DNA of 64,000 nucleotides from a virus: the IMG/VR virus record IMGVR_UViG_3300042553_000685, one strand, 5' to 3'. Positions 3,007-25,520 of this stretch are shown here, piece after piece. Numbering within the stretch: position 1 is the first letter of the stretch; the number at the start of each line of letters is the position of its first letter. A model generated the notes under the pieces. It worked only from the letters and a program-made list of their open reading frames with translations. It was not told the DNA's origin and did not search any database. The position numbers and the translations under genes are program-made.

Positions 3007-3948
3007 TTATGGCAAAGAGTAATTTTCAGTAATAATTGGCATCAACAGGCTGCCGCCACCAGAACCATTACTAACTACTATGTGAAAGTGATCTTCTGGT
3101 GTCGGTGAGTCTGAATTTATAATTCTTACTACACTATTCACTGCTAGATTTTGGTTACTAAATACTAAAAAGGGTCTGGCTCTTCCTAGGGGATAATTAA
3201 TGCCGTAATCGGTAGCGCCGTCATCTCTAAACATAAGATCACTAATATTGGCACCAGGAGTAGGGGTAGTACAGTTTATAGAAGTAATCGGTAATACAGA
3301 TTGAGGAGCTACAGTGCCTGGTGGTGATAGTCCAGGTAACGTCATTTCTTTCATCCTTCCGAACCCTAATCCGCTACCCAATCCACGATAAGCAGCAATG
3401 TAATCCAGTGGATAGGAATTATTGTTCCCAAAATAAGCAACTGATGCCGGATTATCGCAGTATCCGAAATAATGGAATGAAGAATTATTGCCAAAAGTAT
3501 TCAATCCAGTATTATTAATCGCAAACATAGCGATCCCTTTGCTATCCCCACAAGCGTAAAAATATCCTGACTCCGCACCATAGTTACCAAGAATTGAAGC
3601 TCTATTATCGTTAAGTTGAGTTTTTGTTTGGTAAGTGTGGCCTAAGCAGCCCCAAAAAAAGGGGTTTTGTCCAATAGTATTGCTAAAGAAGATTTGCGCC
3701 CGATATCGTCCATCATTAAAACTGTCATTGACGTTTCCTAGCTGTATTAAATCACTATCAACTGCTGGAAACCGAATATTAATCTGATTATCTGGGCTAG
3801 TCTTGACAAACCGATGAGTCGAGGTGATGCCAATGGCATCCAAAAATAAAAGAAAATCAGCCAAATTGAAGTGAACTCCGCCAGCGTCAGCGGTACGCCA
3901 GCCATAAGTTGCGAATCCGTATCTCGAGCCGACAATAGGTAACGTCAT
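3007..3948 (-). CDS. hypothetical Gly/Asn/Ser-rich protein, possibly fibre/receptor-binding-like (313 aa)
   Basis: Long ORF; AT-richer than flanks and without GGGCCC; composition resembles fibre proteins; no specific motif. Confidence 0.5.
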   Translation of the reverse strand: MTLPIVGSRYGFATYGWRTADAGGVHFNLADFLLFLDAIGITSTHRFVKTSPDNQINIRFPAVDSDLIQLGNVNDSFNDGRYRAQIFFSNTIGQNPFFWGCLGHTYQTKTQLNDNRASILGNYGAESGYFYACGDSKGIAMFAINNTGLNTFGNNSSFHYFGYCDNPASVAYFGNNNSYPLDYIAAYRGLGSGLGFGRMKEMTLPGLSPPGTVAPQSVLPITSINCTTPTPGANISDLMFRDDGATDYGINYPLGRARPFLVFSNQNLAVNSVVRIINSDSPTPEDHFHIVVSNGSGGGSLLMPIITENYSLP

Positions 3949-6208: not shown

Positions 6209-6260
6209 GGGCCTGCGGGCCCCTTTTTCCTTCTGGTGAATTTTAATCCTAGGAGGATAC
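6209..6260 (+). promoter_or_regulatory. terminator-promoter-RBS cassette copy 1
   Basis: GGGCCtgcgGGCCC hairpin, CTTTTTCCTTCTGGTGA, ATTTTAAT, CCTAGGAGG, ATG at 6261. Confidence 0.55.
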
Positions 6261-6599
6261 ATGATCTACAAACATTTGCCACGAGAATTTGACTACGCCT
6301 ACCGTGGTCATACTCACACCGACCTCGATTGGGGTCGGTGTGGCGAAGTTCTTTACGCCAGCCGCAGTCTGGCAGTGGCCAAGGACTTCGCTCGTGGAGG
6401 GCATGGGGCTGTGCTCATTCTCGCCTTCGACGGCGACGTCGAAGGCGACCGACCTTGGTGGTACGTAGAGGATGACCCCTCCTACTACGACGAAGTAGTC
6501 CTTCCGACCAGACTATGCGTCTGGTCTAAGTTAGTAATATTCGGCGGTGAGATCATCGCCGAACCAGTGATTAACTGGAACCCAGGTTATACCAAGTAA
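6261..6599 (+). CDS. early-block protein, possible small ADP-ribosyltransferase (112 aa)
   Basis: Own cassette and RBS; ordered YRG (6300-6308), LYASRSL (approx 6351-6371), YDEVVLP (approx 6486-6506) resemble R / S-x-S / E-V-V-L-P motifs of R-S-E ARTs. Confidence 0.6.
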   Translation: MIYKHLPREFDYAYRGHTHTDLDWGRCGEVLYASRSLAVAKDFARGGHGAVLILAFDGDVEGDRPWWYVEDDPSYYDEVVLPTRLCVWSKLVIFGGEIIAEPVINWNPGYTK

Positions 6600-6613
6600 C
6601 CTGGGGTAATTTA

Positions 6614-6669
6614 GGGAGTGTAATGCTCCCTTTTTCCTCGTAGTGAACCTTATCTCTAAGGAGGAGATT
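6614..6669 (+). promoter_or_regulatory. terminator-promoter-RBS cassette copy 2
   Basis: GGGAGtgtaatgCTCCC hairpin, TTTTTCCTCGTAGTGA, CTAAGGAGG, ATG at 6670. Confidence 0.5.
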
Positions 6670-6993
6670 ATGCTTTACGTTTTGAACTCTTTTCCCAATT
6701 CTTTGTACCCCACCACGCCGGGTGGGGTTATAACCAGCACTTGTATTTCAGAGGAAGAGGCCCGCGCTCTCCTCTCCATTACTGACTGGACAAGTGCTAT
6801 AGGGCACCTCTCTACGGCGGAGCTACTCTCCGCCCGTCTCGGAGTAACCGTACCCGATTCACGGGTACAGGTGCCCCCAGGGGCCGAGTATATTGTATGT
6901 TTATTTGTCAGCCCTCGGCGGCTGGCAGAAGGAGAACGATGGACGGAGGAGGATATACTCCAGTTCGACATCAACTACATCCTTGTTAAATAG
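6670..6993 (+). CDS. acrIII-1: DUF1874 / AcrIII-1-family viral ring nuclease homologue (107 aa)
   Basis: MLYVLNSFPNSL, TSAIGHLSTAELLSARLG, SRVQV..EYIVCLF..RRLAEGERWTEEDI and INYILV align along the whole length with my recollection of SIRV1 gp29/STIV B116 (YLANAFSINML, SIGHDSTIQLINSL, NRVEI, RLEEGK). Start set at the ATG at 6670 with AAGGAGG. Confidence 0.8.
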   Translation: MLYVLNSFPNSLYPTTPGGVITSTCISEEEARALLSITDWTSAIGHLSTAELLSARLGVTVPDSRVQVPPGAEYIVCLFVSPRRLAEGERWTEEDILQFDINYILVK

Positions 6994-7002
6994 TTGATAG
7001 AA

Positions 7003-7055
7003 GGGGCACAGTGCCCCCTTTTCTTCTAGTGATCTTTATACCCAAGGAGGGTATT
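7003..7055 (+). promoter_or_regulatory. terminator-promoter-RBS cassette copy 3
   Basis: GGGGCACaGTGCCCC hairpin, CTTTTCTTCTAGTGA, TCTTTATAC, CCAAGGAGG, ATG at 7056. Confidence 0.55.
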
Positions 7056-7190
7056 ATGAATACTAAACTATCAATTGTTATTGCTGTCAGTGCCGTTTTA
7101 CTAACATGCTCTGCCATCATTGGTGGAGTATACGTAGGCATTTGTCACAGTAACTACCCCGTGACGGCGTGCGAGGTAGACAAAGAGTAG
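7056..7190 (+). CDS. 44-aa single-pass membrane peptide (paralogue A)
   Basis: Below ORF-track cutoff; translated by hand MNTKLSIVIAVSAVLLTCSAIIGGVYVGICHSNYPVTACEVDKE; strong RBS; own terminator. Confidence 0.6.
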   Translation: MNTKLSIVIAVSAVLLTCSAIIGGVYVGICHSNYPVTACEVDKE

Positions 7191-7197
7191 TAGTTAA

Positions 7198-7253
7198 GGG
7201 GCCTGGGTGAGGCCCCTTTTTCCTTCTAGTGATCTATAACCCTAGGAGGGATT
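7198..7253 (+). promoter_or_regulatory. terminator-promoter-RBS cassette copy 4
   Basis: GGGGCCtgggtgaGGCCCC hairpin, TTTTTCCTTCTAGTGA, TCTATAAC, CCTAGGAGG, ATG at 7254. Confidence 0.55.
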
Positions 7254-7388
7254 ATGAAATACACATTATCTTACATAGCAGCTATTGCGGTAATTCTTGG
7301 CACATGCGGTGCCATCATTGGTGGAGTATACCATGAGGCCTGTTATGGGCCTCTACCTACCTCACTATGTAAGGTAGACAAAGAGTAG
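7254..7388 (+). CDS. 44-aa single-pass membrane peptide (paralogue B)
   Basis: Hand translation MKYTLSYIAAIAVILGTCGAIIGGVYHEACYGPLPTSLCKVDKE; shares TC.AIIGGVY and C.VDKE with paralogue A. Confidence 0.6.
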   Translation: MKYTLSYIAAIAVILGTCGAIIGGVYHEACYGPLPTSLCKVDKE

Positions 7389-7395
7389 TAGTTAA

Positions 7396-7451
7396 GGGGC
7401 CTGGGCAGGCCCCTTTTTCCTTCTAGTAGTTTATAATCCTAGGAGTACATC
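7396..7451 (+). promoter_or_regulatory. terminator-promoter-RBS cassette copy 5
   Basis: GGGGCCtgggcaGGCCCC hairpin, TTTTTCCTTCTAGTAG, TTTATAAT, CCTAGGAG, ATG at 7452. Confidence 0.55.
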
Positions 7452-7967
7452 ATGAATGGTCTACAAATGGAGAAAGTAGTGTTGCGTGTGATTGAAGAAT
7501 TAGGTTTTAAATGTCCCAAGCCCCGTGAGGTATGGGGGGAGGGTTACTTGTATAACGCCGCCCATGAGCTCGCGAATAAGCATCTAGAGCTCAACTCCCG
7601 AGGCGGTGTCCTTCGTCGTCTCGTCCCCACTGATGATTGGGGAGTCCTAGACCGGGTATACAAGGTGGACGTAATAGTCCGCCAGTATACTGGGGAATTA
7701 TGGGCTCTTCAGCTTACTACCGATGCCGAGGCGGTATATAAGAAGCTGGGCCAGCTTTATAGTACCGATAGTCTTCGTCTGGCTGTTGGCATCGCCAAGA
7801 CCTGCTTGGTGGAGATTAAACCCCCTCAGCCTACCTGGGAGGGGCTCGGCCTGACTAGCCGGGTGGACCGGGATCAAGTAGAGGAGTGCCTCTATGAAAT
7901 GTTCGAGACAGTAGAAAAGAGTGACAAGCTCTTTCACTACCAGCTAGACCTAAGCTGGTTAAAGTAA
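7452..7967 (+). CDS. hypothetical early-block protein (171 aa)
   Basis: ORF track; preceded by cassette copy 5; no motif recognised. Confidence 0.6.
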   Translation: MNGLQMEKVVLRVIEELGFKCPKPREVWGEGYLYNAAHELANKHLELNSRGGVLRRLVPTDDWGVLDRVYKVDVIVRQYTGELWALQLTTDAEAVYKKLGQLYSTDSLRLAVGIAKTCLVEIKPPQPTWEGLGLTSRVDRDQVEECLYEMFETVEKSDKLFHYQLDLSWLK

Positions 7968-8017
7968 TTTAAGAGTATAGGCAAATCCTCAGAGTAAATG
8001 GGATGCCTACGCTACCT

Positions 8018-8082
8018 GAGTGGAGTCACGGCTGTGGTTCCACTCGCTTGATTACATAGACGCTAAGTGCATCTATGTAATC
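8018..8082 (+). ncRNA. two strong hairpins in a 127-nt untranslated gap (sRNA or terminator candidate)
   Basis: GAGTGGA(8018-8024)/TCCACTC(8039-8045) and GATTACATAGA(8050-8060)/TCTATGTAATC(8072-8082), both perfect stems. Confidence 0.25.
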
Positions 8083-8094
8083 AATTAATACTCA

Positions 8095-8149
8095 GGAGGG
8101 CCCACTCCCCTTTTCTTTCTAGTGAATATTTACTCTAGGAGGTAAATCC
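8095..8149 (+). promoter_or_regulatory. terminator-promoter-RBS cassette copy 6
   Basis: GGAGggcccaCTCC, CCTTTTCTTTCTAGTGA, ATATTTACT, CTAGGAGG, ATG at 8150. Confidence 0.5.
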
Positions 8150-8299
8150 ATGTCCCCTTATCACACTTATCTTCAATTAAATCATCAAACGATTCAACTC
8201 CGGTCCGTAGATGGGCCAGCATGTCATCTAGACCTGGATGGTCACCGCTGGTATGTTCTACCAGATGGTGACTTCGAGATCATCACTCTAATAGACTAA
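8150..8299 (+). CDS. 49-aa hypothetical protein
   Basis: Hand translation MSPYHTYLQLNHQTIQLRSVDGPACHLDLDGHRWYVLPDGDFEIITLID; strong RBS; a truncated copy lies at 9133-9252. Confidence 0.55.
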   Translation: MSPYHTYLQLNHQTIQLRSVDGPACHLDLDGHRWYVLPDGDFEIITLID

Positions 8300-8306
8300 C
8301 ACTATA

Positions 8307-8361
8307 GGGGGCTATATGCTCCCCTTTTTCCTTCTGGTGAATTTTAGTCCCAGGAGGACAC
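8307..8361 (+). promoter_or_regulatory. terminator-promoter-RBS cassette copy 7
   Basis: GGGGGCtatatGCTCCCC, TTTTTCCTTCTGGTGA, ATTTTAGT, CCCAGGAGG, ATG at 8362. Confidence 0.55.
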
Positions 8362-9120
8362 ATGTACAAAATCCTAGCAACGTCAATCTACGCCGCACTA
8401 CAGGCAGCAGGCATCTACGTCCACCCAACGACGTGGGCGTTCATCTCGTACTATTTCATGGGCGGTTCCCAACCCCCAACCCTCTCTGAGGCCGACATCG
8501 CTGAGACACGCGACGCGGTAATACGAAACCTCAAGGCTCGTCTTAAGGACGAAGAAATGAGCCGCCGCTCTCTAGTTACTTTCGTGGACATAAATATAGA
8601 AAACGGTTGGTGGTCTTCTTTAAAGGGGGCCATCGGTAACTTCAACTACCGCATTTTGGCGGTAGGTCCCGACACGATTAAGGTGGAGTGTCGTGACACG
8701 TGGGACTTCAATCCCAACTCCCATTACATAGAGCTACCCTGTTCGCCTCGTTTAGCGAGTGCAATATCTTCTCTGGCTAAGAAGGTAGGTATAGAGGTCT
8801 TCTACAATAAAAATAAAAGAGAGCTAATTTTCTGTGAAAAGGATCTGGTCAAGCTCAATCCTGGTCGCGCCTTCACGACCGTGTGGAAAGTAGAGGTCCC
8901 CACAGCGGAGGTAATTCCTGAGTGGGCTACTTACTGGGAGGTGGCTACCTGGAATGAAGGTAACTATGCCTTCATTCGGCCTCTCAAGTACGTACCCTTA
9001 CCCCTCTGCCGCTACCAGCGGGGTAATGGAGTTTATGTTGGACGGGACTACCATCCCGACATCGATTACGTGTCGATGTTAGAAGCAGGTTGGGCTCCCG
9101 CTGTAGATTTACCTGAATAA
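8362..9120 (+). CDS. hypothetical early-block protein (252 aa)
   Basis: ORF track; cassette copy 7 upstream; flanked by the 49-aa gene and its truncated duplicate. Confidence 0.6.
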   Translation: MYKILATSIYAALQAAGIYVHPTTWAFISYYFMGGSQPPTLSEADIAETRDAVIRNLKARLKDEEMSRRSLVTFVDINIENGWWSSLKGAIGNFNYRILAVGPDTIKVECRDTWDFNPNSHYIELPCSPRLASAISSLAKKVGIEVFYNKNKRELIFCEKDLVKLNPGRAFTTVWKVEVPTAEVIPEWATYWEVATWNEGNYAFIRPLKYVPLPLCRYQRGNGVYVGRDYHPDIDYVSMLEAGWAPAVDLPE

Positions 9121-9132
9121 TTAAACATTTAT

Positions 9133-9252
9133 TCTAGGAGGTAAATTCAGCATCGGTCTGTAAATGGGCCGGCATGTCATCTAGACCTCAATGGTCATCG
9201 CTGGTATGTTGCACCAGATGGTGATTTGGAGATTATTACTCTAATAGGGTAA
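9133..9252 (+). pseudogene. 5'-truncated duplicate of the 8150..8299 gene
   Basis: Keeps CTAGGAGGTAAAT, then lacks ~55 nt including the ATG. 9152-9252 is ~85% identical to 8201-8299 and encodes ..VNGPACHLDLNGHRWYVAPDGDLEIITLIG. Confidence 0.6.
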
Positions 9253-9366
9253 TGCTATGGGCCCGTCTCTACTTCTTATTCAAGATAGAGGCGGGCCCCT
9301 CGTCTCTAAATGATAGCGCCTTAAAAAGAAGAGGAATGAAGTTCAGCACCTGAGTTCGTTAAGTAC

Positions 9367-9419
9367 GCCAGCAATTGGCCCCTTTTCTTTTAGTAGTCCT
9401 ATACACCCAAGTATACACA
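9367..9419 (+). promoter_or_regulatory. cassette copy 8 (degenerate, no SD)
   Basis: GCCAgcaaTTGGC, CCCTTTTCTTTTAGTAG, then 25 nt to ATG at 9420. Confidence 0.4.
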
Positions 9420-10157
9420 ATGAGAAACAACAACAACAACGACAACCAGGCCTCTAATCAAGCCTCTAACCAAGCCTCTAACTCCAAAAGCTACGTATTT
9501 ACCCTTAACGTAAGTCGCACTGCCAGCACTAAGTCTGGCGTTCTTGCTTACGTGCACAATGGTGCTATCAAGCGCCGCCTGGATGGGTCTAGCTACTGGC
9601 TGGAGTTCCGGCTGATATCCATTAAGAACGGGGAGGTACCTCTCACTACCTCCGATGGTCGTAGTTTATGTACGTCCGAGTTTGTAAAGCTTCTCTCTGG
9701 AGACGCTAGCGATGACGTGATAATGTCTGTAGAGTTATCTACAGATTTCGAAGACGGGTGGGATAGCTCGTGGGGATGTGTAAAAGTTAGCTTCAACGCA
9801 GAAGACCTCCGCGTTGGGCGCGAAACAGAGTACAAGGGCACAATAACCCAGTACCTTCACCTTGAAGGTGCGGAAATCCAACTTCATCGGGAAGTTGTCC
9901 GTCCGAAAATAGACCCGTCTATACTAGATGGGTTTGAAAGTATCGCAAAGCCTAACGTAGTAACTGCGGAACAGTTACATAGTAAAGCGGCCGCCCGCAA
10001 ACGCAAACGGGAGGCTGCTAAGGCTGCACGAGATGCTGCAGCAATAGTATCTAAGCCAGGTACTGTTGTTGAGTCAGTAGTAGCGTCTAATGATACTGAT
10101 ACTGATTGGGAAGTGCCGGCTGCCCTATCCGTCGACATCGACTATATACTTGACTAA
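9420..10157 (+). CDS. hypothetical protein with N-terminal Asn/Gln-Ala-Ser repeats and basic-then-acidic C-terminus (245 aa)
   Basis: Start set at ATG 9420 just after cassette; MRNNNNNDNQASNQASNQASN; C-terminal ARKRKREAAKAARDAAA then acidic tail. Confidence 0.6.
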   Translation: MRNNNNNDNQASNQASNQASNSKSYVFTLNVSRTASTKSGVLAYVHNGAIKRRLDGSSYWLEFRLISIKNGEVPLTTSDGRSLCTSEFVKLLSGDASDDVIMSVELSTDFEDGWDSSWGCVKVSFNAEDLRVGRETEYKGTITQYLHLEGAEIQLHREVVRPKIDPSILDGFESIAKPNVVTAEQLHSKAAARKRKREAAKAARDAAAIVSKPGTVVESVVASNDTDTDWEVPAALSVDIDYILD

Positions 10158-10162
10158 TAAAA

Positions 10163-10215
10163 GGGGCCCTGCTTGGGCCCCTTTTTCCTTTAGTGGCTAT
10201 ATATTACCACTAACC
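10163..10215 (+). promoter_or_regulatory. cassette copy 9
   Basis: GGGGCCCtgcttGGGCCCC hairpin, TTTTTCCTTTAGTGG, CTATATATT, ATG at 10216. Confidence 0.5.
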
Positions 10216-13200
10216 ATGAATACCATCAACTCTATCGTCTTCCAATCCAATGTTCTCGTAGCCTCTATCGGCGCCGTTATCGCAAACACTCGTGTTACTA
10301 CACGACGTGTAGGCCCTGGTCGCCGTGCTCAGCAGATAGCAAGCCGCCGCGCTAATCGCGTAGTACGCCGTCGCTCTCGTCGTATTGCGTCGGCTGGTCG
10401 TCCTATCCGCTCCTTACCTCAAAGCCAACGCCCCTGCGTTGTAAAATCGGCACGACGTACGCTACGTCGTGCCGCAGCTGCCACAGTCTTAGCCGCTCGC
10501 AAACCCGTGTTACGTAACCGTAACGTCGTAGACAAACTTATCTTACGACAACGTAAGGCCAAACCTATAATGCGCGCTGTCAGCGCAGTATTTGCGCGTC
10601 CCTCGCGTCCTACTAACACCGGCACCGGCACTAAAGCCGTTGCTACCGTAGTTAATAATGCTGCTGGTAGTATTATCGCTGCCCTCGACCAAGGGCGCCT
10701 AAACTATCGTGGCAACGGCCGCACATGTGTGGGCAAGAAGTACAAAACTAAAAACGCTAAAGCCGTTTTAGCGATAGCTAAAGCTGCTAAAGCTACTGAT
10801 AAAGCAGCACGCGTTAAACGCTGTATGAGCGTTGTAGTACCAGAATTACCAAGTGATGTACTGGCTTGCCGCATGAGAGTCGTAGGCAAACTATGCGGTG
10901 TGACCTTTGTACAAGGGGACATAGCGTCTTATTGTGACAATGTCGTTACTATACCTTCATTCGAAGATATATACGCGATAACTCACGAGCTTGTCCACCA
11001 CTGCCAAGCTCTAGGTCTTACTGAAGACCTAGATATAGCTCTGGTGTCTGAGGCCGCTATTGGCGCGGGCTCGGCTCAATGGCATGACACTAAATCGTTC
11101 TACGAAGGTACTGAGCATGAGAATGATGAATACGAAGCAGCTCTGCTTATGTACGACCCGGCGTTAGTGGCCCGCCTCTTATGCACTCACTACCTCATGA
11201 CCGCGTTTGTAGAAAGCGGGGCACCTGGTCCTGATGATACATGGATGGATGTGGTAGATAGTTTAGATCCTGCGATTTGTCGTGAAGTCGTAGGTCTCGA
11301 TGATCGCGTACTCGATTATAAAACCTATGGCGAATATGCTGAAGCCGTTGGATATGATGACACTAATACGTTATTAGACTGGGAATTTGTCTTTAACAAT
11401 AGTGTCAACAACGATAATGCTGTTGCGCTAACCATTCAAGCAATTGATGGTCTTATTGGTGCGGCGCCCGCAGCAGTAACTCCTACCCACCCGCTCTCTA
11501 ACATAGGAGCCCCTACTAAGGGGTTAGAGAGTGATAGCTCCTCTAACAATACCACCAACACTAGCACTACCATGAAGAGCATTATCGAGATGTTAATTCC
11601 TGACCCTAGTACTCTCGGTGGAGCCGTGTCTCCTAAGCAGGAGGCGCGCATTACGGGAGCTCGTAAAGAGTTAACCCGCTTGTTTGGGGCTAATAACTTC
11701 GACCTTCTGCCTGAAGGTCCGATTCTCTATGTCGTATCTGGTTACAACCGTATGTGTAAGAAGTTCCTTGCGCTTCTAGACCATCGGGTTGTTTACACCA
11801 CGGATTCTAAAATGAATCCTAAGGTCATTAACTTAGGTGTAACTAAGTCTATTCCCTATGAAGACGACAAGCATACCTATACTACTAAGACCGAATGCTT
11901 AGTTAGCATGTATAGTGAGCACTTCCTCACTAAATTAGCCACGTGGTCTGGTGATGACCTGGCCGCTCTTGTAGGCTGCCTGTGTATTAAACAACACCGT
12001 ATTGTTAGTGTTGAGGGCCCCTGTGTTGTCATCAAGGGTAATAACCGTAACACTACTTTCAACTTTAGTACAGGTACCGTCAATGACGGCCGTCAGAGTC
12101 GCATCGCTAATGAGCTAGTTAAAGTAGGAGGCAAAGACTACAGTGGTCGTGTAGCCCTTGTAGCGCTCTGTATGAAGGTAGTGTATAACGCTACTGGTGC
12201 GCGTGCTATCCTCAATGAGGTAACTAACCTATGGCGCGAGGACATCAACTACGGCGCTCAGCCTAAAGAGGGTCAATCTCTATTTGAGATTAATCGCTGT
12301 ATGTCCCGTCCTGTTGTTTTCAAGCCTTGGGATAAGGCCTTCCCGTTCCTGCAAGTGGAGAACGTTGGCCTCGCACCCAGCGATCTTGAATTGTCGCTCA
12401 AAGCCGGTGTCATAGCAGCACCTGATAAATACAATTCAAAATGGATCGCTGTAGGTAAGGGTGCCAAGGCCATGTTCCTCGGACTTAAGGATAGTAAGAT
12501 ATACTCCATCCATGACTTCAGCAAGCCCACTAAGGTATACAACCGTCCACCTAGCTCGGGTAAATACACCCGTGCTGAGGTGGTAGGTCGTCATGATAGC
12601 CTACTTCGCGTTGATTTAGGTGATGGTAGCTATAGTTGTGGTGGTGGCCTCTATCTACGCACCGCATTCACCAATAGCCGCTTTGGCTTTGGCAGTGGTG
12701 TTGCTGCTATACGCCGCGACCTTGAGTTCGAATACACCGTACCGAAGACCATTACTAAGGAGTTTCACGTACTCCGTATTCCTAGCGAAGTCCGCGCTCT
12801 TATGGCTGCTGATCTAGATGACCCTATGAGTAAACTCATGGAAGTCATCGAAGGCAAAATAGAGAAGGCAAAGGGGCAGGTCTATGCTCCTGGTAACCCT
12901 ATCATTAGCATTATGCGGGGCAAGTACTGCATAGTGAAGAACGAGACATTCGCGCAGGACATCCGCGTAATAGGCGGGACTGTCACGCGTAATGGCGTCG
13001 AGGGCCGCGCTGATAGCGTCACTATTCGACTTGAGACTGAGATGGTAGGGCGCGACCAAGCCCTCAAACTCCGCGGTCTAGGTAAGAAGCTTACCACTCT
13101 TCCCTATGACGTTGAGGGACTATCTCAACCCTGGGATATCATCCTAAATAACGAGACCACCAAGGGATGGCCCGCGCTCATAGAGATGTTCGCCATTGAG

Positions 13201-15297
13201 AAGAGAGGCTGCACCTATACTCCTGAGGGTGCGCTTCTCACCATCGATGCTACTGGTGAAGTTATTGATCTTATGACTAAGAGTAATACCTTTACTGAGT
13301 GGGCTCGAGCCAACAGTGTTAAAGAGGTCATCTCTTTTAATATGGCCCGCGACCTGTGGGATTCCATCTCCTCCGTAGTAACTAACGATGACATCAAGGT
13401 AATCGACATCGACGATACCAGCGTCCGTATCGAAGAAACAGTAGAGGTTATATACGGCTATCTGCCGTATGATATCGAGATAGCCACTCCTCGTGAGTCC
13501 GTAGCATTCTCCAAAATGACTATGGAACAGGTGGGTATTGTGGCTCTACAGAACCGCTCTTGGGGCGAAGCACTCATGGAGGAGGTTAAGTACGATAACG
13601 TCATGTCCATAGTTAGTATGATCACGTCTAAAAACTGTGCTGCTCACATTAACATCAGCACTACTGAGGGGCGTGACCATCTACGGAACATTATCGGCGT
13701 AGTTAACAACTACGTTTCTGATAGCACCCCCGGCAGTGACCGCAAACTGCTAGAGCGTTTTGCTACCATCTATCCAGATGGAGTGGATATCGTTGCCCAG
13801 AATAACGGTAATGAGGTCTCTCTTCATATCAATGGTAAGGCCCTAAGCGCGTTCGGTACCTTCTCTGGCGCCTCCGCTACTGGTATTATGCTAGACCTCT
13901 TGACACTGTTGGCCTACGTTACTGATGTAGGAATTGAAGACCAAAGCGGTTTGGATAGTAAAATCTACTCCATGACCGCTAAGGTCAGCCGCGGTTTACG
14001 CACATGGTGTAACACCATGGTTAAATCCAAAAGCATTCTGAAAAGTATGGCCCGCGCTGGCGATGTGGTCGTTGGTAAGGTCAAGACCAGCTATAGCCCC
14101 TTGCTCCATAGCTCTGATGGCGTGCCTGTAATTCTCATGCACCCCGATTGCCCTATGGTGCGTATGCTTGGCATCGAAGAAGGTCAGGTTATTGGGATAC
14201 AACGGACTCCTATGGGCTTCGTCCTATGCGGCCGCGTTAAGTTCTCTGCTACTGATGCCTTTATCGCACACTACACAATCAACCCTCTCCTATGGCACGC
14301 CGTTAACGAAGGCGATGCTGATGGTGACCAGTGCGGCGGCATTAATGCTCACAAGTATAGCATCGATGCTGAGAGTGCCCTCACTATCAATGCTAGTCTC
14401 ATGGGCATGGGCGGCTACTTCTACTGCTACGAAGCAGATGACCTGCCGTTCTTCGCCTTCATGAGTTATGAAGATAAGATGGGCAAGAAATCCCTCACTA
14501 AGTGGGATAAGCCTGTAGCTACTGCTATCGCTGTTGATAAGTATGTAAGCGATGCTGCTGAAGTGCACACGCATTATAAAGTAGCCGTAGGTGTCGGCTA
14601 CGGCATCTGCTCCGCACTTGCCTTCCAGACCTGGGATAGTATGTACCGCGCTAGCGGCGTCGATACCGACGCACTTAAAGCATGTGTTATCGCTTGGCGT
14701 TTCGTTTATGAAAGCATGGGTCTCGGGGGCTATACCCCTGAGGCTAAGATCTTCATGGCTACCTTAGTGCAAGCAGCTCGCGCCTGGGCTGCTGGCGTAT
14801 CTATGTATAAGTCGTTGCAAGACGGGTTATACTACTCTGCCAACTCCACTAAGCTTGCGGATACGGATCGCCAGGGAGGTAGTGTACCTCCTGCTCGGGT
14901 TATGGCTAACCTTATGCCTGCTAAACTAGCTAAGGAGCCCGCGGTAATCTACCATCTTATAAAGGCCCGCGCCCGTACTCTCACATACGGCGCTCTCGAA
15001 CGGGGCAACTTCGCTCGCAAGAGCCTTATCATGTCATCTGCCATATACGGAGCCTTCCGTCGTACTGGCCAGGGTCATGATCCTGTGGTTCCTATGACTC
15101 AGGATGACGCGGCCAGTTATGGCGCTGATGATATCGTCCCCGTTAGTGTGTTCGACATGGTAAGTGAGTTCCAACTCTCTAACTATGTCAAGAACCCTCA
15201 ACTCAAGCAGCTGTTGGAAATCGCAACTGCTGTACATCTCGATCTCGGTGACTACAAACTAGAACTCGCTGAAGCTGAAGATCATCCTGATTTCTAA
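10216..15297 (+). CDS. giant protein (1,693 aa): candidate single-polypeptide two-barrel (beta/beta-prime-like) RNA polymerase with Arg-rich N-terminus
   Basis: Uninterrupted 5-kb ORF. LKLRGLGKKLTTLPYDVEGLSQPWDIILNNE (13064-13155) resembles the beta motif K..GRHGNKG..MPYDENGTPVDIVLNP. QRTPMGF...INPLLWHAVNEGDADGDQCGGINAH (14200-14350) resembles beta-prime NRAPTLH...[20 protein letters not shown]. HELVH lies at 10984-10998. The first ~130 aa are extremely R/A-rich. Start moved to the ATG at 10216 after the cassette. Confidence 0.6.
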   Translation: MNTINSIVFQSNVLVASIGAVIANTRVTTRRVGPGRRAQQIASRRANRVVRRRSRRIASAGRPIRSLPQSQRPCVVKSARRTLRRAAAATVLAARKPVLRNRNVVDKLILRQRKAKPIMRAVSAVFARPSRPTNTGTGTKAVATVVNNAAGSIIAALDQGRLNYRGNGRTCVGKKYKTKNAKAVLAIAKAAKATDKAARVKRCMSVVVPELPSDVLACRMRVVGKLCGVTFVQGDIASYCDNVVTIPSFEDIYAITHELVHHCQALGLTEDLDIALVSEAAIGAGSAQWHDTKSFYEGTEHENDEYEAALLMYDPALVARLLCTHYLMTAFVESGAPGPDDTWMDVVDSLDPAICREVVGLDDRVLDYKTYGEYAEAVGYDDTNTLLDWEFVFNNSVNNDNAVALTIQAIDGLIGAAPAAVTPTHPLSNIGAPTKGLESDSSSNNTTNTSTTMKSIIEMLIPDPSTLGGAVSPKQEARITGARKELTRLFGANNFDLLPEGPILYVVSGYNRMCKKFLALLDHRVVYTTDSKMNPKVINLGVTKSIPYEDDKHTYTTKTECLVSMYSEHFLTKLATWSGDDLAALVGCLCIKQHRIVSVEGPCVVIKGNNRNTTFNFSTGTVNDGRQSRIANELVKVGGKDYSGRVALVALCMKVVYNATGARAILNEVTNLWREDINYGAQPKEGQSLFEINRCMSRPVVFKPWDKAFPFLQVENVGLAPSDLELSLKAGVIAAPDKYNSKWIAVGKGAKAMFLGLKDSKIYSIHDFSKPTKVYNRPPSSGKYTRAEVVGRHDSLLRVDLGDGSYSCGGGLYLRTAFTNSRFGFGSGVAAIRRDLEFEYTVPKTITKEFHVLRIPSEVRALMAADLDDPMSKLMEVIEGKIEKAKGQVYAPGNPIISIMRGKYCIVKNETFAQDIRVIGGTVTRNGVEGRADSVTIRLETEMVGRDQALKLRGLGKKLTTLPYDVEGLSQPWDIILNNETTKGWPALIEMFAIEKRGCTYTPEGALLTIDATGEVIDLMTKSNTFTEWARANSVKEVISFNMARDLWDSISSVVTNDDIKVIDIDDTSVRIEETVEVIYGYLPYDIEIATPRESVAFSKMTMEQVGIVALQNRSWGEALMEEVKYDNVMSIVSMITSKNCAAHINISTTEGRDHLRNIIGVVNNYVSDSTPGSDRKLLERFATIYPDGVDIVAQNNGNEVSLHINGKALSAFGTFSGASATGIMLDLLTLLAYVTDVGIEDQSGLDSKIYSMTAKVSRGLRTWCNTMVKSKSILKSMARAGDVVVGKVKTSYSPLLHSSDGVPVILMHPDCPMVRMLGIEEGQVIGIQRTPMGFVLCGRVKFSATDAFIAHYTINPLLWHAVNEGDADGDQCGGINAHKYSIDAESALTINASLMGMGGYFYCYEADDLPFFAFMSYEDKMGKKSLTKWDKPVATAIAVDKYVSDAAEVHTHYKVAVGVGYGICSALAFQTWDSMYRASGVDTDALKACVIAWRFVYESMGLGGYTPEAKIFMATLVQAARAWAAGVSMYKSLQDGLYYSANSTKLADTDRQGGSVPPARVMANLMPAKLAKEPAVIYHLIKARARTLTYGALERGNFARKSLIMSSAIYGAFRRTGQGHDPVVPMTQDDAASYGADDIVPVSVFDMVSEFQLSNYVKNPQLKQLLEIATAVHLDLGDYKLELAEAEDHPDF

Positions 15298-24124: not shown

Positions 24125-24285
24125 ATTTGAGTAGGTTTAATAGAACGGTCTTGAAACAGTGGGTCATTTGCTGTATAATTGGTTTATTGCGGGTGCGGCG
24201 CAAATGAACCTTGAAAACTCCATAGCGTATGGCCTTTACCACTGGGCGGTTCGAATTAATCTTAAACCCTACTAGGGATTGAAAC
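24125..24285 (+). ncRNA. putative omega-RNA scaffold / right-end region of the IS607-type element
   Basis: Position immediately 3' of tnpB, where TnpB guide-RNA scaffolds are encoded; ends in the repeat-like hairpin at 24249-24285. Confidence 0.35.
24249..24285 (+). CRISPR. solitary 37-nt CRISPR-repeat-like sequence
   Basis: GTTCGAATTAATCTTAAACCCTACTAGGGATTGAAAC has a GTT start, a CCCTA/TAGGG palindrome and an ATTGAAAC 3' handle. It closely resembles 37-nt repeats of cyanobacterial type I-D/III arrays as I recall them. Single copy in the window. Confidence 0.6.
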
Positions 24286-24333
24286 CTCATAAGACGGCTC
24301 AAAGTGATTCGATTCCGCTATTCTGCATACAGC
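24286..24333 (+). pseudogene. tRNA-Met 3'-half copy (anticodon loop to 3' end plus flank)
   Basis: ctcataagacggctcaaagtgattcgattccgctattctgca matches positions 32-73 of the tRNA at 25448-25520, with differences clustered in the variable loop and T-stem. No 5' half is present. Confidence 0.8.
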
Positions 24334-24724
24334 GTTAGAGCAAAACCCACAACGTCATATAAGTTAAACCTATGAGTCACTATCAAAGTACCATTCCACC
24401 CTCTGGGGCAAACCTATTAACTATTGATTGCACTCTATGCTGGCGTTACTTAGTATAGAGTATAATATTGTATATCGATAAGTTATACTTATCAATTAAC
24501 CACAGCTTCTCTCACCTCAGATAGATATGCCCATAACATACAGTTATAATATATAACAATTCAAACATAAATAATTGGGGTTTTTAATACAGCGTTGTAA
24601 ATACGGCAAATATCGCCATATTTAGCTATATTTAAACAAATATTAAGCTATCAAATGCGAGCGAAACCTAGGCAGAGAGATAGACAAGAGTGAGTAGCCA
24701 CTCAATTATTAAGGAGATATAGGC

Positions 24725-24886
24725 ATGTCAAAAACAGTATTAGCTTTATATGTGACCCTTACCGTGTTCATAGTGATTCTAATGTATATAATGATATCAA
24801 TCATATCTGCTGGAGGGCCCGCCAGCGATACATGTAGTAGAGTGTGTAGCCACTCAATTATTAAGGATATACAAGCATGTCAATAA
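24725..24886 (+). CDS. 53-aa membrane peptide (tandem paralogue 1)
   Basis: Hand translation MSKTVLALYVTLTVFIVILMYIMISIISAGGPASDTCSRV...; AAGGAG RBS; upstream leader gtagccactcaattattaagga duplicated at 24845. Confidence 0.45.
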   Translation: MSKTVLALYVTLTVFIVILMYIMISIISAGGPASDTCSRVCSHSIIKDIQACQ

Positions 24887-25089
24887 CAGTAATAGCGTTA
24901 AATGTAGTCTTTATCGTATACATAGTGTTCCTGATGTATCTAATTCCTAGAGTAGGGCCCCGCGCTAGGTGGGGCCTTGTCGCGTTAATATGCGTCATAG
25001 CGTTGGTATGGATATCGATCATGTCTAATGGAGGGCCCGCCAGTGATACATGTAGTAGAGTGTTCCACTTCTCTATATCTAGGCTATAA
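24877..25089 (+). CDS. 70-aa membrane protein (tandem paralogue 2)
   Basis: ORF track; shares leader, N-terminus MS.T.. and GGPASDTCSRV with paralogue 1. Confidence 0.5.
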   Translation: MSITVIALNVVFIVYIVFLMYLIPRVGPRARWGLVALICVIALVWISIMSNGGPASDTCSRVFHFSISRL

Positions 25090-25447: not shown

Positions 25448-25520
25448 GCAGGATTGGCCGATAGGTGGAGGCACCGTCCTCATAAGACGGCTTAGAGCGG
25501 TTCGATTCCGCTATCCTGCA
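25448..25520 (+). tRNA. tRNA-Met (anticodon CAT; could alternatively be a lysidine-type tRNA-Ile2)
   Basis: Hand-folded cloverleaf. Acceptor GCAGGAT/ATCCTGC is perfect; D arm is GCCG..AGGC; anticodon stem is CCGTC/GACGG with loop CTCATAA; T arm is AGCGG-TTCGATT-CCGCT; discriminator A; no encoded CCA. Confidence 0.85.

What the first reader, a model, noticed from the sequence alone, without database searches (positions are those of the whole stretch)
6670..6993. DUF1874 / AcrIII-1-type ring nuclease (anti-type-III-CRISPR) homologue in the early block
The 107-aa product aligns end to end with my recollection of the archaeal-virus AcrIII-1 family (SIRV1 gp29, STIV B116). YVLNSFPNSL parallels YLANAFSINML. 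SAIGHLSTAELLSARLG parallels SIGHDSTIQLINSLCG and includes the catalytic His. SRVQV...YIVCLF..RRLAEGERWTEEDI parallels NRVEI...LYVVQ..RLEEGKILTLEEI. These proteins degrade cyclic tetra-adenylate and so disarm type III CRISPR signalling. Its presence implies that the host uses cA4-dependent type III immunity, which fits the type III/I-D-style CRISPR repeat found at 24249. It also marks 6.2-9.3 kb as a likely anti-defence island whose small neighbours are uncharacterised.
Basis: partly seen in the sequence, partly recalled or inferred. Interest (0 to 1): 0.7.

Follow-up and report, generated by a model that had tools for sequence, protein, structure and literature searches.

The report
Ring-nuclease anti-CRISPR gene in Microcystis phage
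[quoted passage not shown] It is a new host and phage setting for a known anti-defence tool, not a new kind of system.

Summary
Window 6670-6993 (+) encodes a 107-aa protein with a strong ribosome-binding site. It matches Pfam PF08960 (DUF1874) end to end (E 4.6e-11, 43 bits, cut-off 26). Its predicted fold (pLDDT 93) matches only solved DUF1874 structures: AFV3-109, SIRV1 gp29/AcrIII-1, STIV B116 and Csx1-Crn2.

The catalytic His (H46) and the cA4 contacts N6, S48, T49, R65, R84 and E87 are conserved. The gene is under purifying selection (median dN/dS 0.23).

The window is an uncultured relative of Microcystis phages Ma-LMM01 and MaMV. The gene is an accessory cassette: 5 of 7 isolates have it, and Ma-LMM01 and MaMV-DC lack it. 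It lies in a hyperplastic block of single-gene units separated by conserved hairpin-leader elements.

A known host, M. aeruginosa FACHB-524, has three type III-B systems with Csx1/CARF effectors and spacers that match MaMV phages. The anti-type-III reading is therefore well motivated, but it is inferred.

- The orthologous neighbours in Ma-LMM01 are middle genes, not early genes.
- The repeat at 24249 is the host's type I-D repeat, not a type III repeat.

The "anti-defence island" is unproven, because all neighbours are orphans. Verdict: new member of a known kind, moderate to low surprise.

The parts
6613..6631 (+). GC-rich hairpin (AGGGAGTGTAATGCTCCCT) followed by a T-run. It is the upstream boundary of the gene cassette and a terminator-like element for the preceding gp067-like gene.
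   Evidence: Terminator-like scan: 13 such sites in 5.9-10.3 kb against 3.2 +/- 1.8 expected. It is almost fully conserved in MaMV-CH01 and Ma-LMM01.
6632..6669 (+). Conserved leader: T-run, CCTCGTAGTGAA, an A/T-rich -10-like stretch, then the Shine-Dalgarno AAGGAGG (6658-6664).
   Evidence: Repeat families D1, D2 and D4. Upstream regions of nine successive genes, shown side by side, share this layout. The motif CCYTTTTYCYTYNTRGTR has 6 of its 7 window copies in 6.2-8.4 kb, with 0.01 expected by chance.
6670..6993 (+). DUF1874 / AcrIII-1-type ring nuclease gene, 107 aa. Catalytic His46 is codon 6805-6807, Arg84 is 6919-6921 and Glu87 is 6928-6930.
7003..7023 (+). Downstream hairpin (GGGGCACAGTGCCCC) plus T-run. 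It ends the cassette and opens the next one.
6209..10209 (+). Hyperplastic block of nine single-gene cassettes: gp067-like, DUF1874, two 44-aa transmembrane peptides, gp066-like, a 49-aa ORF, a 252-aa ORF, gp065-like, and the start of the giant gp064-like gene. Each is preceded by the hairpin-leader element.

Best explanation
The gene encodes a phage-borne ring nuclease of the DUF1874 (AcrIII-1) family.

Proposed mechanism, by homology with SIRV1 gp29: two copies form a dimer whose interface binds one molecule of cyclic tetra-adenylate (cA4). A lid loop (here about residues 81-93, SPRRLAEGERWTE, with Arg84 as the 'lock') closes over the ligand. His46 from each subunit acts as general acid, so the ring is cut twice into linear A2>P.

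Proposed role: during infection of Microcystis the enzyme removes the cA4 made by Cas10 of the host's type III-B complexes when they recognise phage transcripts. The cA4-dependent effectors (Csx1 and other CARF proteins) then stay off, and the infected cell is not driven into RNA degradation or dormancy.

The gene is an accessory cassette. It is gained and lost by recombination at conserved hairpin-leader elements in a variable block next to the endolysin genes.

What is shown: family membership, fold, conservation of the catalytic and main ligand-contact residues, purifying selection, phage location, patchy distribution, and the existence of matching type III-B immunity in a known host of the phage group. 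What is inferred: dimerisation, cA4 cleavage, the cOA species used by the host, the expression timing, and the anti-CRISPR effect in vivo.
For: Family and fold:
- Pfam PF08960, E 4.6e-11, full length.
- The PDB sequence search and the profile search hit only DUF1874 chains.
- AlphaFold2 model: pLDDT 93.4, pTM 0.83.
- Foldseek against the PDB: the 16 matches with E <= 0.001 are all DUF1874 (2j6b, 6scf, 2j85, 2x4i, 8y7f/g), TM 0.65-0.72. A 17th, also Csx1-Crn2, has E 0.08, and the first unrelated fold has E 0.64.

Active-site residues:
- The 71-sequence alignment has invariant columns N6, G45, H46, R65, R84 and E87.
- These map to gp29 N8, H47, R66, R85 and E88; S48/T49 map to S49/T50.
- The gp29 roles are from the bioRxiv version of Athukoralage et al. 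(10.1101/778746): H47A loses more than 2500-fold activity, and R85 locks the lid.

Activity of related proteins:
- A bacteriophage homologue (THSA-485A) abolishes cA4-dependent but not cA6-dependent type III immunity.
- AcrIII-1 is the commonest ring nuclease in phage genomes, 36 of 28,114 (PMC12409355).

Selection: median dN/dS is 0.23 over 43 pairs, and all key residues are invariant in 10 alleles.

Genomic setting:
- The window is a Ma-LMM01/MaMV-type Microcystis phage.
- Homologues of 81-84% identity occur in five MaMV isolates, annotated only as 'hypothetical protein'.
- No close relative exists in 185,579 species-representative genomes.
- The nearest outgroups sit in phage-like contexts without cas genes.

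Host: M. aeruginosa FACHB-524 has three III-B loci with Csx1/CARF. Their spacers match MaMVs, one of them identically, yet these phages infect the strain. Csx1 adds about 10-fold protection in a reconstituted system (PMC11855584). cA4 is the signal for 84% of known effector instances.
Against: - No biochemical or genetic test exists for this protein or any cyanophage homologue.
- The orthologues of the flanking genes in Ma-LMM01 are 'middle' genes. Their log2 read counts at 1 h are 1.6-2.8, against 5.4-7.9 for early genes.
- SIRV2 gp37, a close homologue of the founding AcrIII-1, fails as an anti-CRISPR in native infection precisely because it is expressed middle/late (bioRxiv 10.1101/2023.01.10.523387).
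- MaMV-DC lacks the gene but still infects FACHB-524, whose III-B spacers match it. The gene is therefore not required on that host.
- Three ligand-contact positions of gp29 are not conserved: S11 to P9, N13 to S11, Q81 to V80.
- This allele has Ser at position 64, where at least 90% of homologues have Asn.
- The cOA species made by the Microcystis III-B systems is unknown.
- The host of this particular uncultured phage is inferred, not known.
Confidence: 0.7

Rival explanations
1. It is a genuine DUF1874 protein, but in infection it does not act mainly against CRISPR. Like SIRV2 gp37, it may give a mild replicative advantage through another route, such as binding and inhibiting a host protein, with cA4 cleavage as a side activity that comes too late to matter.
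For: In native SIRV2 infection gp37 has no anti-CRISPR effect because of middle/late expression, and it acts on a host lysine methyltransferase. The Ma-LMM01 orthologues of the neighbouring genes are middle class. Phages without the gene still infect the same host.
Against: The methyltransferase partner is restricted to Crenarchaeota, and its binding residues are not conserved outside a few rudiviruses. Here the invariant residues are exactly the cA4 and catalytic ones. In Ma-LMM01 the 'middle' class covers 162 genes, so a middle-class ring nuclease would be made together with most possible type III targets, and type III immunity fires only once its target is transcribed (established property of type III systems).
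Confidence: 0.15
2. It binds cA4 or another cyclic oligonucleotide without efficient cleavage, acting as a sponge, or it has shifted specificity to another cyclic nucleotide signal.
For: Three of the gp29 ligand contacts differ (P9, S11, V80). This allele has S64 at a position that is Asn in at least 90% of homologues. Phage sponges for cyclic nucleotides are known, as cited in PMC12409355.
Against: The catalytic His is invariant, together with the R65, R84, E87 and S48/T49 set. All tested DUF1874 members, and the related Csx16, are cA4-specific nucleases.
Confidence: 0.07
3. It is a small DNA-binding or regulatory protein, as several lipothrixvirus and bicaudavirus homologues are still annotated in GenBank.
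For: RefSeq annotates the AFV and ATV homologues as 'DNA binding protein'.
Against: That annotation predates the discovery of ring-nuclease activity. The co-crystal 6scf shows cA4 in the dimer interface. Nothing in the sequence suggests a DNA-binding motif.
Confidence: 0.03

Closest known systems
AcrIII-1 (viral DUF1874 ring nuclease: SIRV1 gp29, PDB 2x4i/6scf; STIV B116, 2j85; AFV3-109, 2j6b; phage THSA-485A homologue)
   Same: Same Pfam family, length (107 against 109-122 aa) and predicted fold. The catalytic His and the Arg/Arg/Glu/Ser/Thr/Asn ligand-contact set are the same. It is virus-encoded and a stand-alone single-domain protein.
   Different: Only 20-37% identity to the solved structures. 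It belongs to a bacterial/phage sub-clade with the motifs N-[SA]-x-P-N and PRRLAEGE-x-W. Three gp29 contact positions differ. The carrier is a roughly 170-kb lytic cyanomyovirus of a mesophilic freshwater host, not an archaeal virus or a Firmicute phage. Activity is untested.
Crn2 (cellular DUF1874 ring nuclease, including the Marinitoga Csx1-Crn2 fusion, PDB 8y6z/8y7f/8y7g)
   Same: Same domain and catalytic residues. Foldseek TM 0.65-0.68; profile E 2e-12.
   Different: Crn2 is encoded in or fused to type III CRISPR loci and limits the cell's own response. This gene is in a lytic phage, no close copy was found in 185,579 species-representative genomes, and there are no cas neighbours.
Csx16 (CRISPR-associated cA4-specific ring nuclease)
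   Same: The PADLOC Csx16 model matches residues 15-98 at E 4.3e-9. Csx16 is structurally related to AFV3-109 and cleaves cA4 (PMC12409355).
   Different: Pfam returns only PF08960 even at E <= 10, and NCBIfam returns nothing. I treat this as a sister family, not the family of this protein.
PeSL (promoter-early stem-loop) cassettes of T4-type phages, which flank and shuffle small genes in hyperplastic regions (Arbiol et al. 2010; cited from my own knowledge, not read here)
   Same: Repeated stem-loop plus regulatory leader in front of each small gene. Recombination breakpoints fall inside the repeated element. Gene content varies between related phages.
   Different: The sequences are unrelated. 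It is not shown that the element contains a promoter, and the Ma-LMM01 orthologues are middle, not early. This is an analogy only.

Membership tests
DUF1874 / AcrIII-1 ring nucleases | Significant full-length match to the family profile (Pfam PF08960) | tested here: met
   E 4.6e-11, 43.2 bits against a cut-off of 26, profile positions 1-100 of 101. A profile of 71 homologues hits all DUF1874 PDB chains, and only those.
DUF1874 / AcrIII-1 ring nucleases | The family's own alpha/beta fold, unrelated to CARF | tested here: met
   Predicted model pLDDT 93.4. Foldseek top 17 matches are all DUF1874, TM 0.57-0.72; unrelated folds start at E 0.64. This is a prediction, not a solved structure.
DUF1874 / AcrIII-1 ring nucleases | Absolutely conserved catalytic histidine (H47 of SIRV1 gp29) | tested here: met
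   H46 aligns with H47. It is invariant in the 71 homologues and in 10 phage alleles.
DUF1874 / AcrIII-1 ring nucleases | cA4-contact residues (gp29 N8, S11, N13, S49, T50, R66, Q81, R85; conserved E88 in the lid) | tested here: inconclusive
   N6, S48, T49, R65, R84 and E87 are conserved. S11 to P9, N13 to S11 and Q81 to V80 are not. The paper itself calls these residues 'semi or fully conserved'.
DUF1874 / AcrIII-1 ring nucleases | Homodimer with one cA4 site at the interface and a closing lid loop | not testable with these tools
   Only monomer prediction was available. A coil segment at residues 81-92 corresponds to the gp29 lid loop 82-94.
DUF1874 / AcrIII-1 ring nucleases | Rapid, specific cleavage of cA4 to A2>P | not testable with these tools
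   Needs an enzyme assay.
AcrIII-1 as an anti-CRISPR (functional class) | Encoded by a virus or mobile element rather than a CRISPR locus | tested here: met
   Ma-LMM01/MaMV-type phage context. No close relative was found in the scan of species-representative cellular genomes.
AcrIII-1 as an anti-CRISPR (functional class) | Host has cA4-signalling type III immunity that targets the virus | tested here: inconclusive
   FACHB-524 has three III-B loci with Csx1/CARF and MaMV-matching spacers. The cOA species has not been determined, and the host of this uncultured phage is only inferred.
AcrIII-1 as an anti-CRISPR (functional class) | Expressed early enough to pre-empt signalling; relieves type III interference in vivo | tested here: inconclusive
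   The gene is absent from Ma-LMM01, the only phage of the group with a transcriptome. The orthologues of its neighbours are middle class B5. There are no in vivo data.
Crn2 (cellular) | Located in, next to or fused to a type III CRISPR-Cas locus | tested here: not met
   There are no cas genes in the neighbourhood here or in the related loci examined.

The most novel reading that the evidence does not exclude
The 4-kb block at 6.2-10.2 kb may be a cassette-exchange hotspot of Microcystis myoviruses. In this reading, conserved hairpin-leader elements shuffle counter-defence cargo between phages. The DUF1874 ring nuclease is then only the one recognisable item among several new anti-defence genes: the gp067-like, gp066-like, 252-aa and 44-aa transmembrane families, plus the 656-aa and 279-aa cargo seen in relatives. 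Together with the conserved solitary type I-D repeat at 24249 (a possible RNA anti-CRISPR), this phage lineage would carry separate weapons against both CRISPR classes of its host.
Probability: 0.25. Interest if true: 0.65.

Novelty: new member of a known kind. Interest (0 to 1): 0.33.

Why it matters
Microcystis aeruginosa is described as carrying the largest number of defence genes among studied bacteria and archaea (PMC5780444). It causes toxic blooms, and its phages are being considered for bloom control.

A ring nuclease in most, but not all, Ma-LMM01/MaMV-type phages offers one possible answer to a puzzle: how these phages infect a strain whose type III-B arrays already hold matching spacers (PMC11855584).

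The patchy distribution also provides a natural experiment: MaMV-CH01, CH02, DL01, DL02 and DH01 have the gene, while MaMV-DC and Ma-LMM01 do not. A reconstituted test system already exists (FACHB-524 Cmr + Csx1 in E. coli).

I found no paper linking DUF1874 or AcrIII-1 to Microcystis phages, and the GenBank records call the gene 'hypothetical protein'. For CRISPR biology in general this adds a lineage, not a principle.

Tried and rejected
1. Close relatives in cellular genomes. The single-protein scan of genome contigs found none. A hand-made degenerate pattern for PRRLAEGExW gave 11 matches. Only 3 of them are real, and they are remote DUF1874 genes at 30-38% identity, in Saccharibacteria, Thermoanaerobaculia and Cystobacter. 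There is no cyanobacterial or CRISPR-linked source.

2. Neighbour annotation. Pfam (including E <= 10), PADLOC and the PDB sequence search gave nothing for the block's other genes. PHROGs gave only Ma-LMM01-specific families of unknown function. The 656-aa, 279-aa and 64-aa cargo genes in relatives also had no Pfam match.

3. I suspected from an R...S-x-S...E-V-V-L-P pattern that the upstream 112-aa gp067-like protein might be a mini ADP-ribosyltransferase. Only near-identical homologues exist, and the AlphaFold model failed (pLDDT 32). This remains an untested lead and is not claimed.

4. Csx16 membership. This rests on the PADLOC model only. Pfam and NCBIfam do not support it, so I did not file the protein there.

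5. Whether the 2025 ring-nuclease survey already lists a MaMV phage among its 36 AcrIII-1-positive genomes. The supplementary table is not held, so I cannot tell.

6. Recent horizontal acquisition judged by composition. The gene's GC (52.5%) matches its neighbours (49-54%), so there is no signal.

7. The 99-aa antisense ORF at 6675-6974. I rejected it because the family match and the dN/dS pattern fit the + frame.

8. A sigma-70 promoter for the gene. The consensus scan found no more sites than expected by chance. It remains unresolved whether the leader element holds a promoter.

Full report
THE OBSERVATION

Window 6670-6993 (+) is an intact ORF of 107 codons ending in TAG at 6991-6993. AAGGAGG lies at 6658-6664, 5 nt before the ATG. 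Some pipelines start the gene at the GTG at 6643, giving 116 aa.

The protein matches Pfam PF08960 (STIV_B116-like, formerly DUF1874) at E 4.6e-11 and 43.2 bits, against a gathering score of 26. The match covers profile positions 1-100 of 101. It also matches PHROG 5063 at E 6.6e-14. A sequence search of the PDB finds AFV3-109 (2j6b, E 1.1e-11), SIRV1 ORF114/gp29 (2x4i, 6scf) and STIV B116 (2j85).

FAMILY, FOLD AND ACTIVE SITE

A full HMMER scan of 1.84 billion representative proteins found 382 relatives at E <= 0.001 but only one at E <= 1e-30. The Microcystis-phage clade is therefore an isolated twig whose nearest outgroups share 40-49% identity.

In a 71-sequence alignment the invariant columns are N6, G45, H46, R65, R84 and E87. 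F8, S42, T49, L57, N64, L85 and G88 are conserved in at least 90% of sequences.

Athukoralage et al. (bioRxiv 10.1101/778746, read) report the following for SIRV1 gp29:
- H47 is the general acid, and H47A loses more than 2500-fold activity.
- R85 on the 82-94 lid loop locks the closed dimer over cA4.
- The side chains of N8, S11, N13, S49, T50, R66 and Q81 contact the ligand.

By the HMMER alignments, H46 = H47, S48/T49 = S49/T50, R65 = R66, R84 = R85, E87 = E88 and N6 = N8. Three contacts are not kept: S11 to P9, N13 to S11, and Q81 to V80. The allele in this window also has Ser at position 64, where most homologues have Asn.

An AlphaFold2 model built on the 71-sequence alignment is confident (pLDDT 93.4, pTM 0.83). 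In Foldseek against the PDB, the 16 matches with E <= 0.001 are all DUF1874 structures:
- AFV3-109.
- The AcrIII-1:cA4 complex 6scf.
- STIV B116.
- SIRV1 ORF114.
- The Marinitoga Csx1-Crn2 fusion.

Their TM-scores are 0.65-0.72. A 17th match, also Csx1-Crn2, has E 0.08, and the first unrelated fold has E 0.64. A profile of the alignment hits only DUF1874 chains in the PDB (E 5e-30 to 3e-10).

Membership of the DUF1874 family is therefore established as far as sequence and predicted structure can establish it. Dimerisation and cA4 cleavage are inferred.

WHAT THE WINDOW IS

The region is 90% identical in DNA to Microcystis phage MaMV-CH01 and 85-88% identical to MaMV-CH02, DL01, DL02, DH01, DC and Ma-LMM01, all of genus Fukuivirus. 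IMG/VR holds uncultured contigs that encode an identical protein.

The gene occurs at 81-84% amino-acid identity in five isolates (CH01 gene 80L, CH02, DL01, DL02, DH01), always annotated 'hypothetical protein'. tblastn does not find it in Ma-LMM01 or MaMV-DC.

I also anchored a search on the neighbouring gp066-like gene, which removes the ascertainment bias of searching with the DUF1874 gene itself. Nine IMG/VR contigs have the gene, one with enough upstream sequence lacks it (L035), and one is truncated.

Ten alleles give a median dN/dS of 0.23, with every key residue invariant. The gene's GC content (52.5%) is like that of its neighbours. No close relative exists in 185,579 species-representative genomes. 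The nearest outgroups sit among small phage-type ORFs and an SSB gene, not next to cas genes. This is a viral (AcrIII-1-type) copy, not a cellular (Crn2-type) copy.

ANATOMY OF THE NEIGHBOURHOOD

From 6.2 to 10.2 kb, each of nine successive genes is preceded by the same element of about 50 nt:
- a GC-rich hairpin;
- a T-run;
- YYTCTAGTGA;
- an A/T-rich -10-like stretch;
- CCTAGGAGG and the start codon.

Terminator-like hairpins are four-fold over-represented in this region: 13 against 3.2 +/- 1.8 expected. The core motif has 6 of its 7 window copies here, against 0.01 expected by chance.

In a three-way alignment, the window, MaMV-CH01 and Ma-LMM01 are collinear through the gp067-like gene, the hairpin and TAGTGAA. 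Ma-LMM01 then diverges completely. It carries a different short ORF in the slot and rejoins at the hairpin in front of the gp066-like gene.

Other cassettes also vary between relatives:
- the number of copies of a 44-aa transmembrane peptide gene;
- a 252-aa ORF;
- a mobile 656-aa ORF that sits on either side of the DUF1874 gene in different contigs;
- a 279-aa ORF.

The DUF1874 gene is thus one exchangeable unit in a hyperplastic block. From my own knowledge, this resembles the PeSL-flanked modules of T4-type phages. That comparison is an analogy only.

(a) 'Early block' is not supported. In the Ma-LMM01 infection transcriptome the early class (B1) is gp054-gp063 only. That block corresponds to sequence downstream of the giant gp064-like gene in this window. 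The orthologues of the flanking genes (gp064-gp067) are class B5, 'middle'. Their log2 read counts at 1 h are 1.6-2.8 against 5.4-7.9 for early genes, and they are high by 3 h of a 6-12 h latent period (PMC5780444).

Timing matters because SIRV2 gp37, a close homologue of the founding AcrIII-1, does not work as an anti-CRISPR in native infection owing to middle/late expression (bioRxiv 10.1101/2023.01.10.523387).

Two points soften this. The gene is absent from Ma-LMM01, so its own timing is unknown. The 'middle' class also holds 162 genes, so the enzyme would be made together with most possible type III targets, and type III systems fire only when their target is transcribed.

(b) 'The host uses cA4-dependent type III immunity' is well motivated. 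M. aeruginosa FACHB-524, the isolation host of the five gene-positive MaMV phages, has type I-B and I-D systems and three III-B systems with Csx1 and CARF accessory proteins. Spacers of two III-B arrays match all six MaMV phages, one of them identically, yet the phages infect the strain. In a reconstituted system Csx1 adds about 10-fold protection (PMC11855584). cA4 is the signal for 84% of known effector instances (PMC12409355).

The cOA species in Microcystis has not been measured. MaMV-DC, which lacks the gene, also infects FACHB-524, so the gene is not indispensable there.

(c) 'The CRISPR repeat at 24249 fits' is the wrong type. That 37-mer differs by one base from the FACHB-524 type I-D repeat, and it resembles none of the strain's three III-B repeats. 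It is a single copy. It supports Microcystis as host. It says nothing about type III.

'Anti-defence island': the hypervariability is real, but no other gene in the block has any informative match. A structure prediction of the upstream gp067-like protein failed (pLDDT 32). The label remains a hypothesis.

MOST LIKELY MECHANISM

The protein is most likely a homodimeric ring nuclease. It would bind cA4 at the dimer interface, close the 81-93 lid with R84, and use H46 of each subunit as general acid to cut the ring into two A2>P. This would keep Csx1 and other CARF effectors of the host's type III-B systems switched off during infection.

I put about 0.85 on 'active cA4 ring nuclease' and about 0.6-0.65 on 'acts as an anti-type-III factor in natural infection'. 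The combined figure is 0.7.

The rivals are:
- a non-CRISPR role like that of SIRV2 gp37 (0.15);
- a sponge, or shifted ligand specificity (0.07);
- a DNA-binding protein, as the old annotations say (0.03).

COMPARISON WITH WHAT IS KNOWN, AND NOVELTY

The protein is a member of the DUF1874/AcrIII-1 family and works like one. It is not Crn2 in the sense of a CRISPR-locus gene. A PADLOC Csx16 model also matches (E 4.3e-9). This fits the reported structural kinship of Csx16 with AFV3-109, but Pfam and NCBIfam do not place the protein in Csx16.

AcrIII-1 is already known to be the commonest ring nuclease in phages, found in 36 of 28,114 genomes, and homologues in cyanobacterial genomes were noted in 2019. 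Full-text searches found no paper that links DUF1874 or AcrIII-1 with Microcystis or cyanophages. I could not check whether MaMV-DH01 is in the 2025 survey's supplementary list.

Verdict: a new member of a known kind. It is useful for Microcystis-phage ecology and directly testable with existing reagents, but it would not surprise a CRISPR specialist.

Noticed in passing
window 24249-24285 (+), with flanks 24150-24332: A solitary 37-nt CRISPR repeat, GTTCGAATTAATCTTAAACCCTACTAGGGATTGAAAC, is 36 of 37 identical to the type I-D repeat of M. aeruginosa FACHB-524. There is one copy only, and it gives a weak full-length Rfam CRISPR-DR5 match. A TGTATAAT extended -10-like box lies about 70 nt upstream. 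The repeat runs directly into an 88% copy of the 3' half of the phage tRNA-Met, from the anticodon loop to the acceptor end. The whole unit is 100% conserved in three IMG/VR Microcystis-phage contigs. The repeat and its upstream part are missing at this spot in the cultured MaMV and Ma-LMM01 genomes. It could be a solitary repeat unit, an RNA anti-CRISPR against type I-D, or a one-spacer mini-array.
   Followed up: partly
window 6209-10209 (+): Nine successive genes are each preceded by a conserved element of about 50 nt: GC hairpin, T-run, YYTCTAGTGA, an A/T-rich stretch and CCTAGGAGG. Recombination breakpoints between related phages fall inside this element. It resembles the PeSL cassettes of T4-type phages. 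Whether it holds a promoter is unknown.
   Followed up: partly
window 7056-7190 and 7254-7388 (+); also L014:7331-7525 and L002 about 3615-3730: A family of 38-64-aa peptides has one N-terminal transmembrane helix and a C-terminal C-x(n)-C...(V/E)DKE tail. It is present in 1-4 tandem copies that differ between related phages. Function is unknown. The genes lie next to, but divergent from, the two endolysin genes.
   Followed up: no
window 6261-6599 (+): The gp067-like 112-aa protein has invariant Y-R-G, A-S-R-S-L and Y-D-E-V-x-L-P motifs. These loosely recall the R-S-E signature of ADP-ribosyltransferases. It has no Pfam or PDB match, and the AlphaFold model failed (pLDDT 32).
   Followed up: partly
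L012:3849-5819 and L014:7592-9562; L014:9742-10581: In related uncultured phages a 656-aa orphan gene occupies different slots of the same variable block: upstream of the DUF1874 gene in L012 and downstream of the gp066-like gene in L014. A 279-aa orphan follows it in L014. Neither has a Pfam match.
   Followed up: partly
window 9124-9261 (+): A decayed second copy of the 49-aa ORF cassette is 83% identical to 8192-8308. The Shine-Dalgarno sequence is kept but the start codon is lost and there is an early stop. Relatives carry an intact or similar second copy.
   Followed up: no
window 24687-25063 (+): Tandemly duplicated small ORFs encode hydrophobic peptides. Each has its own AAGGAG site and ends in a conserved GGAGGGCCCGCCAG...GTAGTAGAGTGT segment (repeat families D1 and D2). 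They lie between the solitary repeat and the tRNA-Met gene at 25448-25520.
   Followed up: no
window 10210-15297 (+): A giant orphan gene of about 1,700 aa, the orthologue of Ma-LMM01 gp064, separates the variable cassette block from the orthologues of the Ma-LMM01 early genes gp063-gp054. It was not analysed.
   Followed up: no
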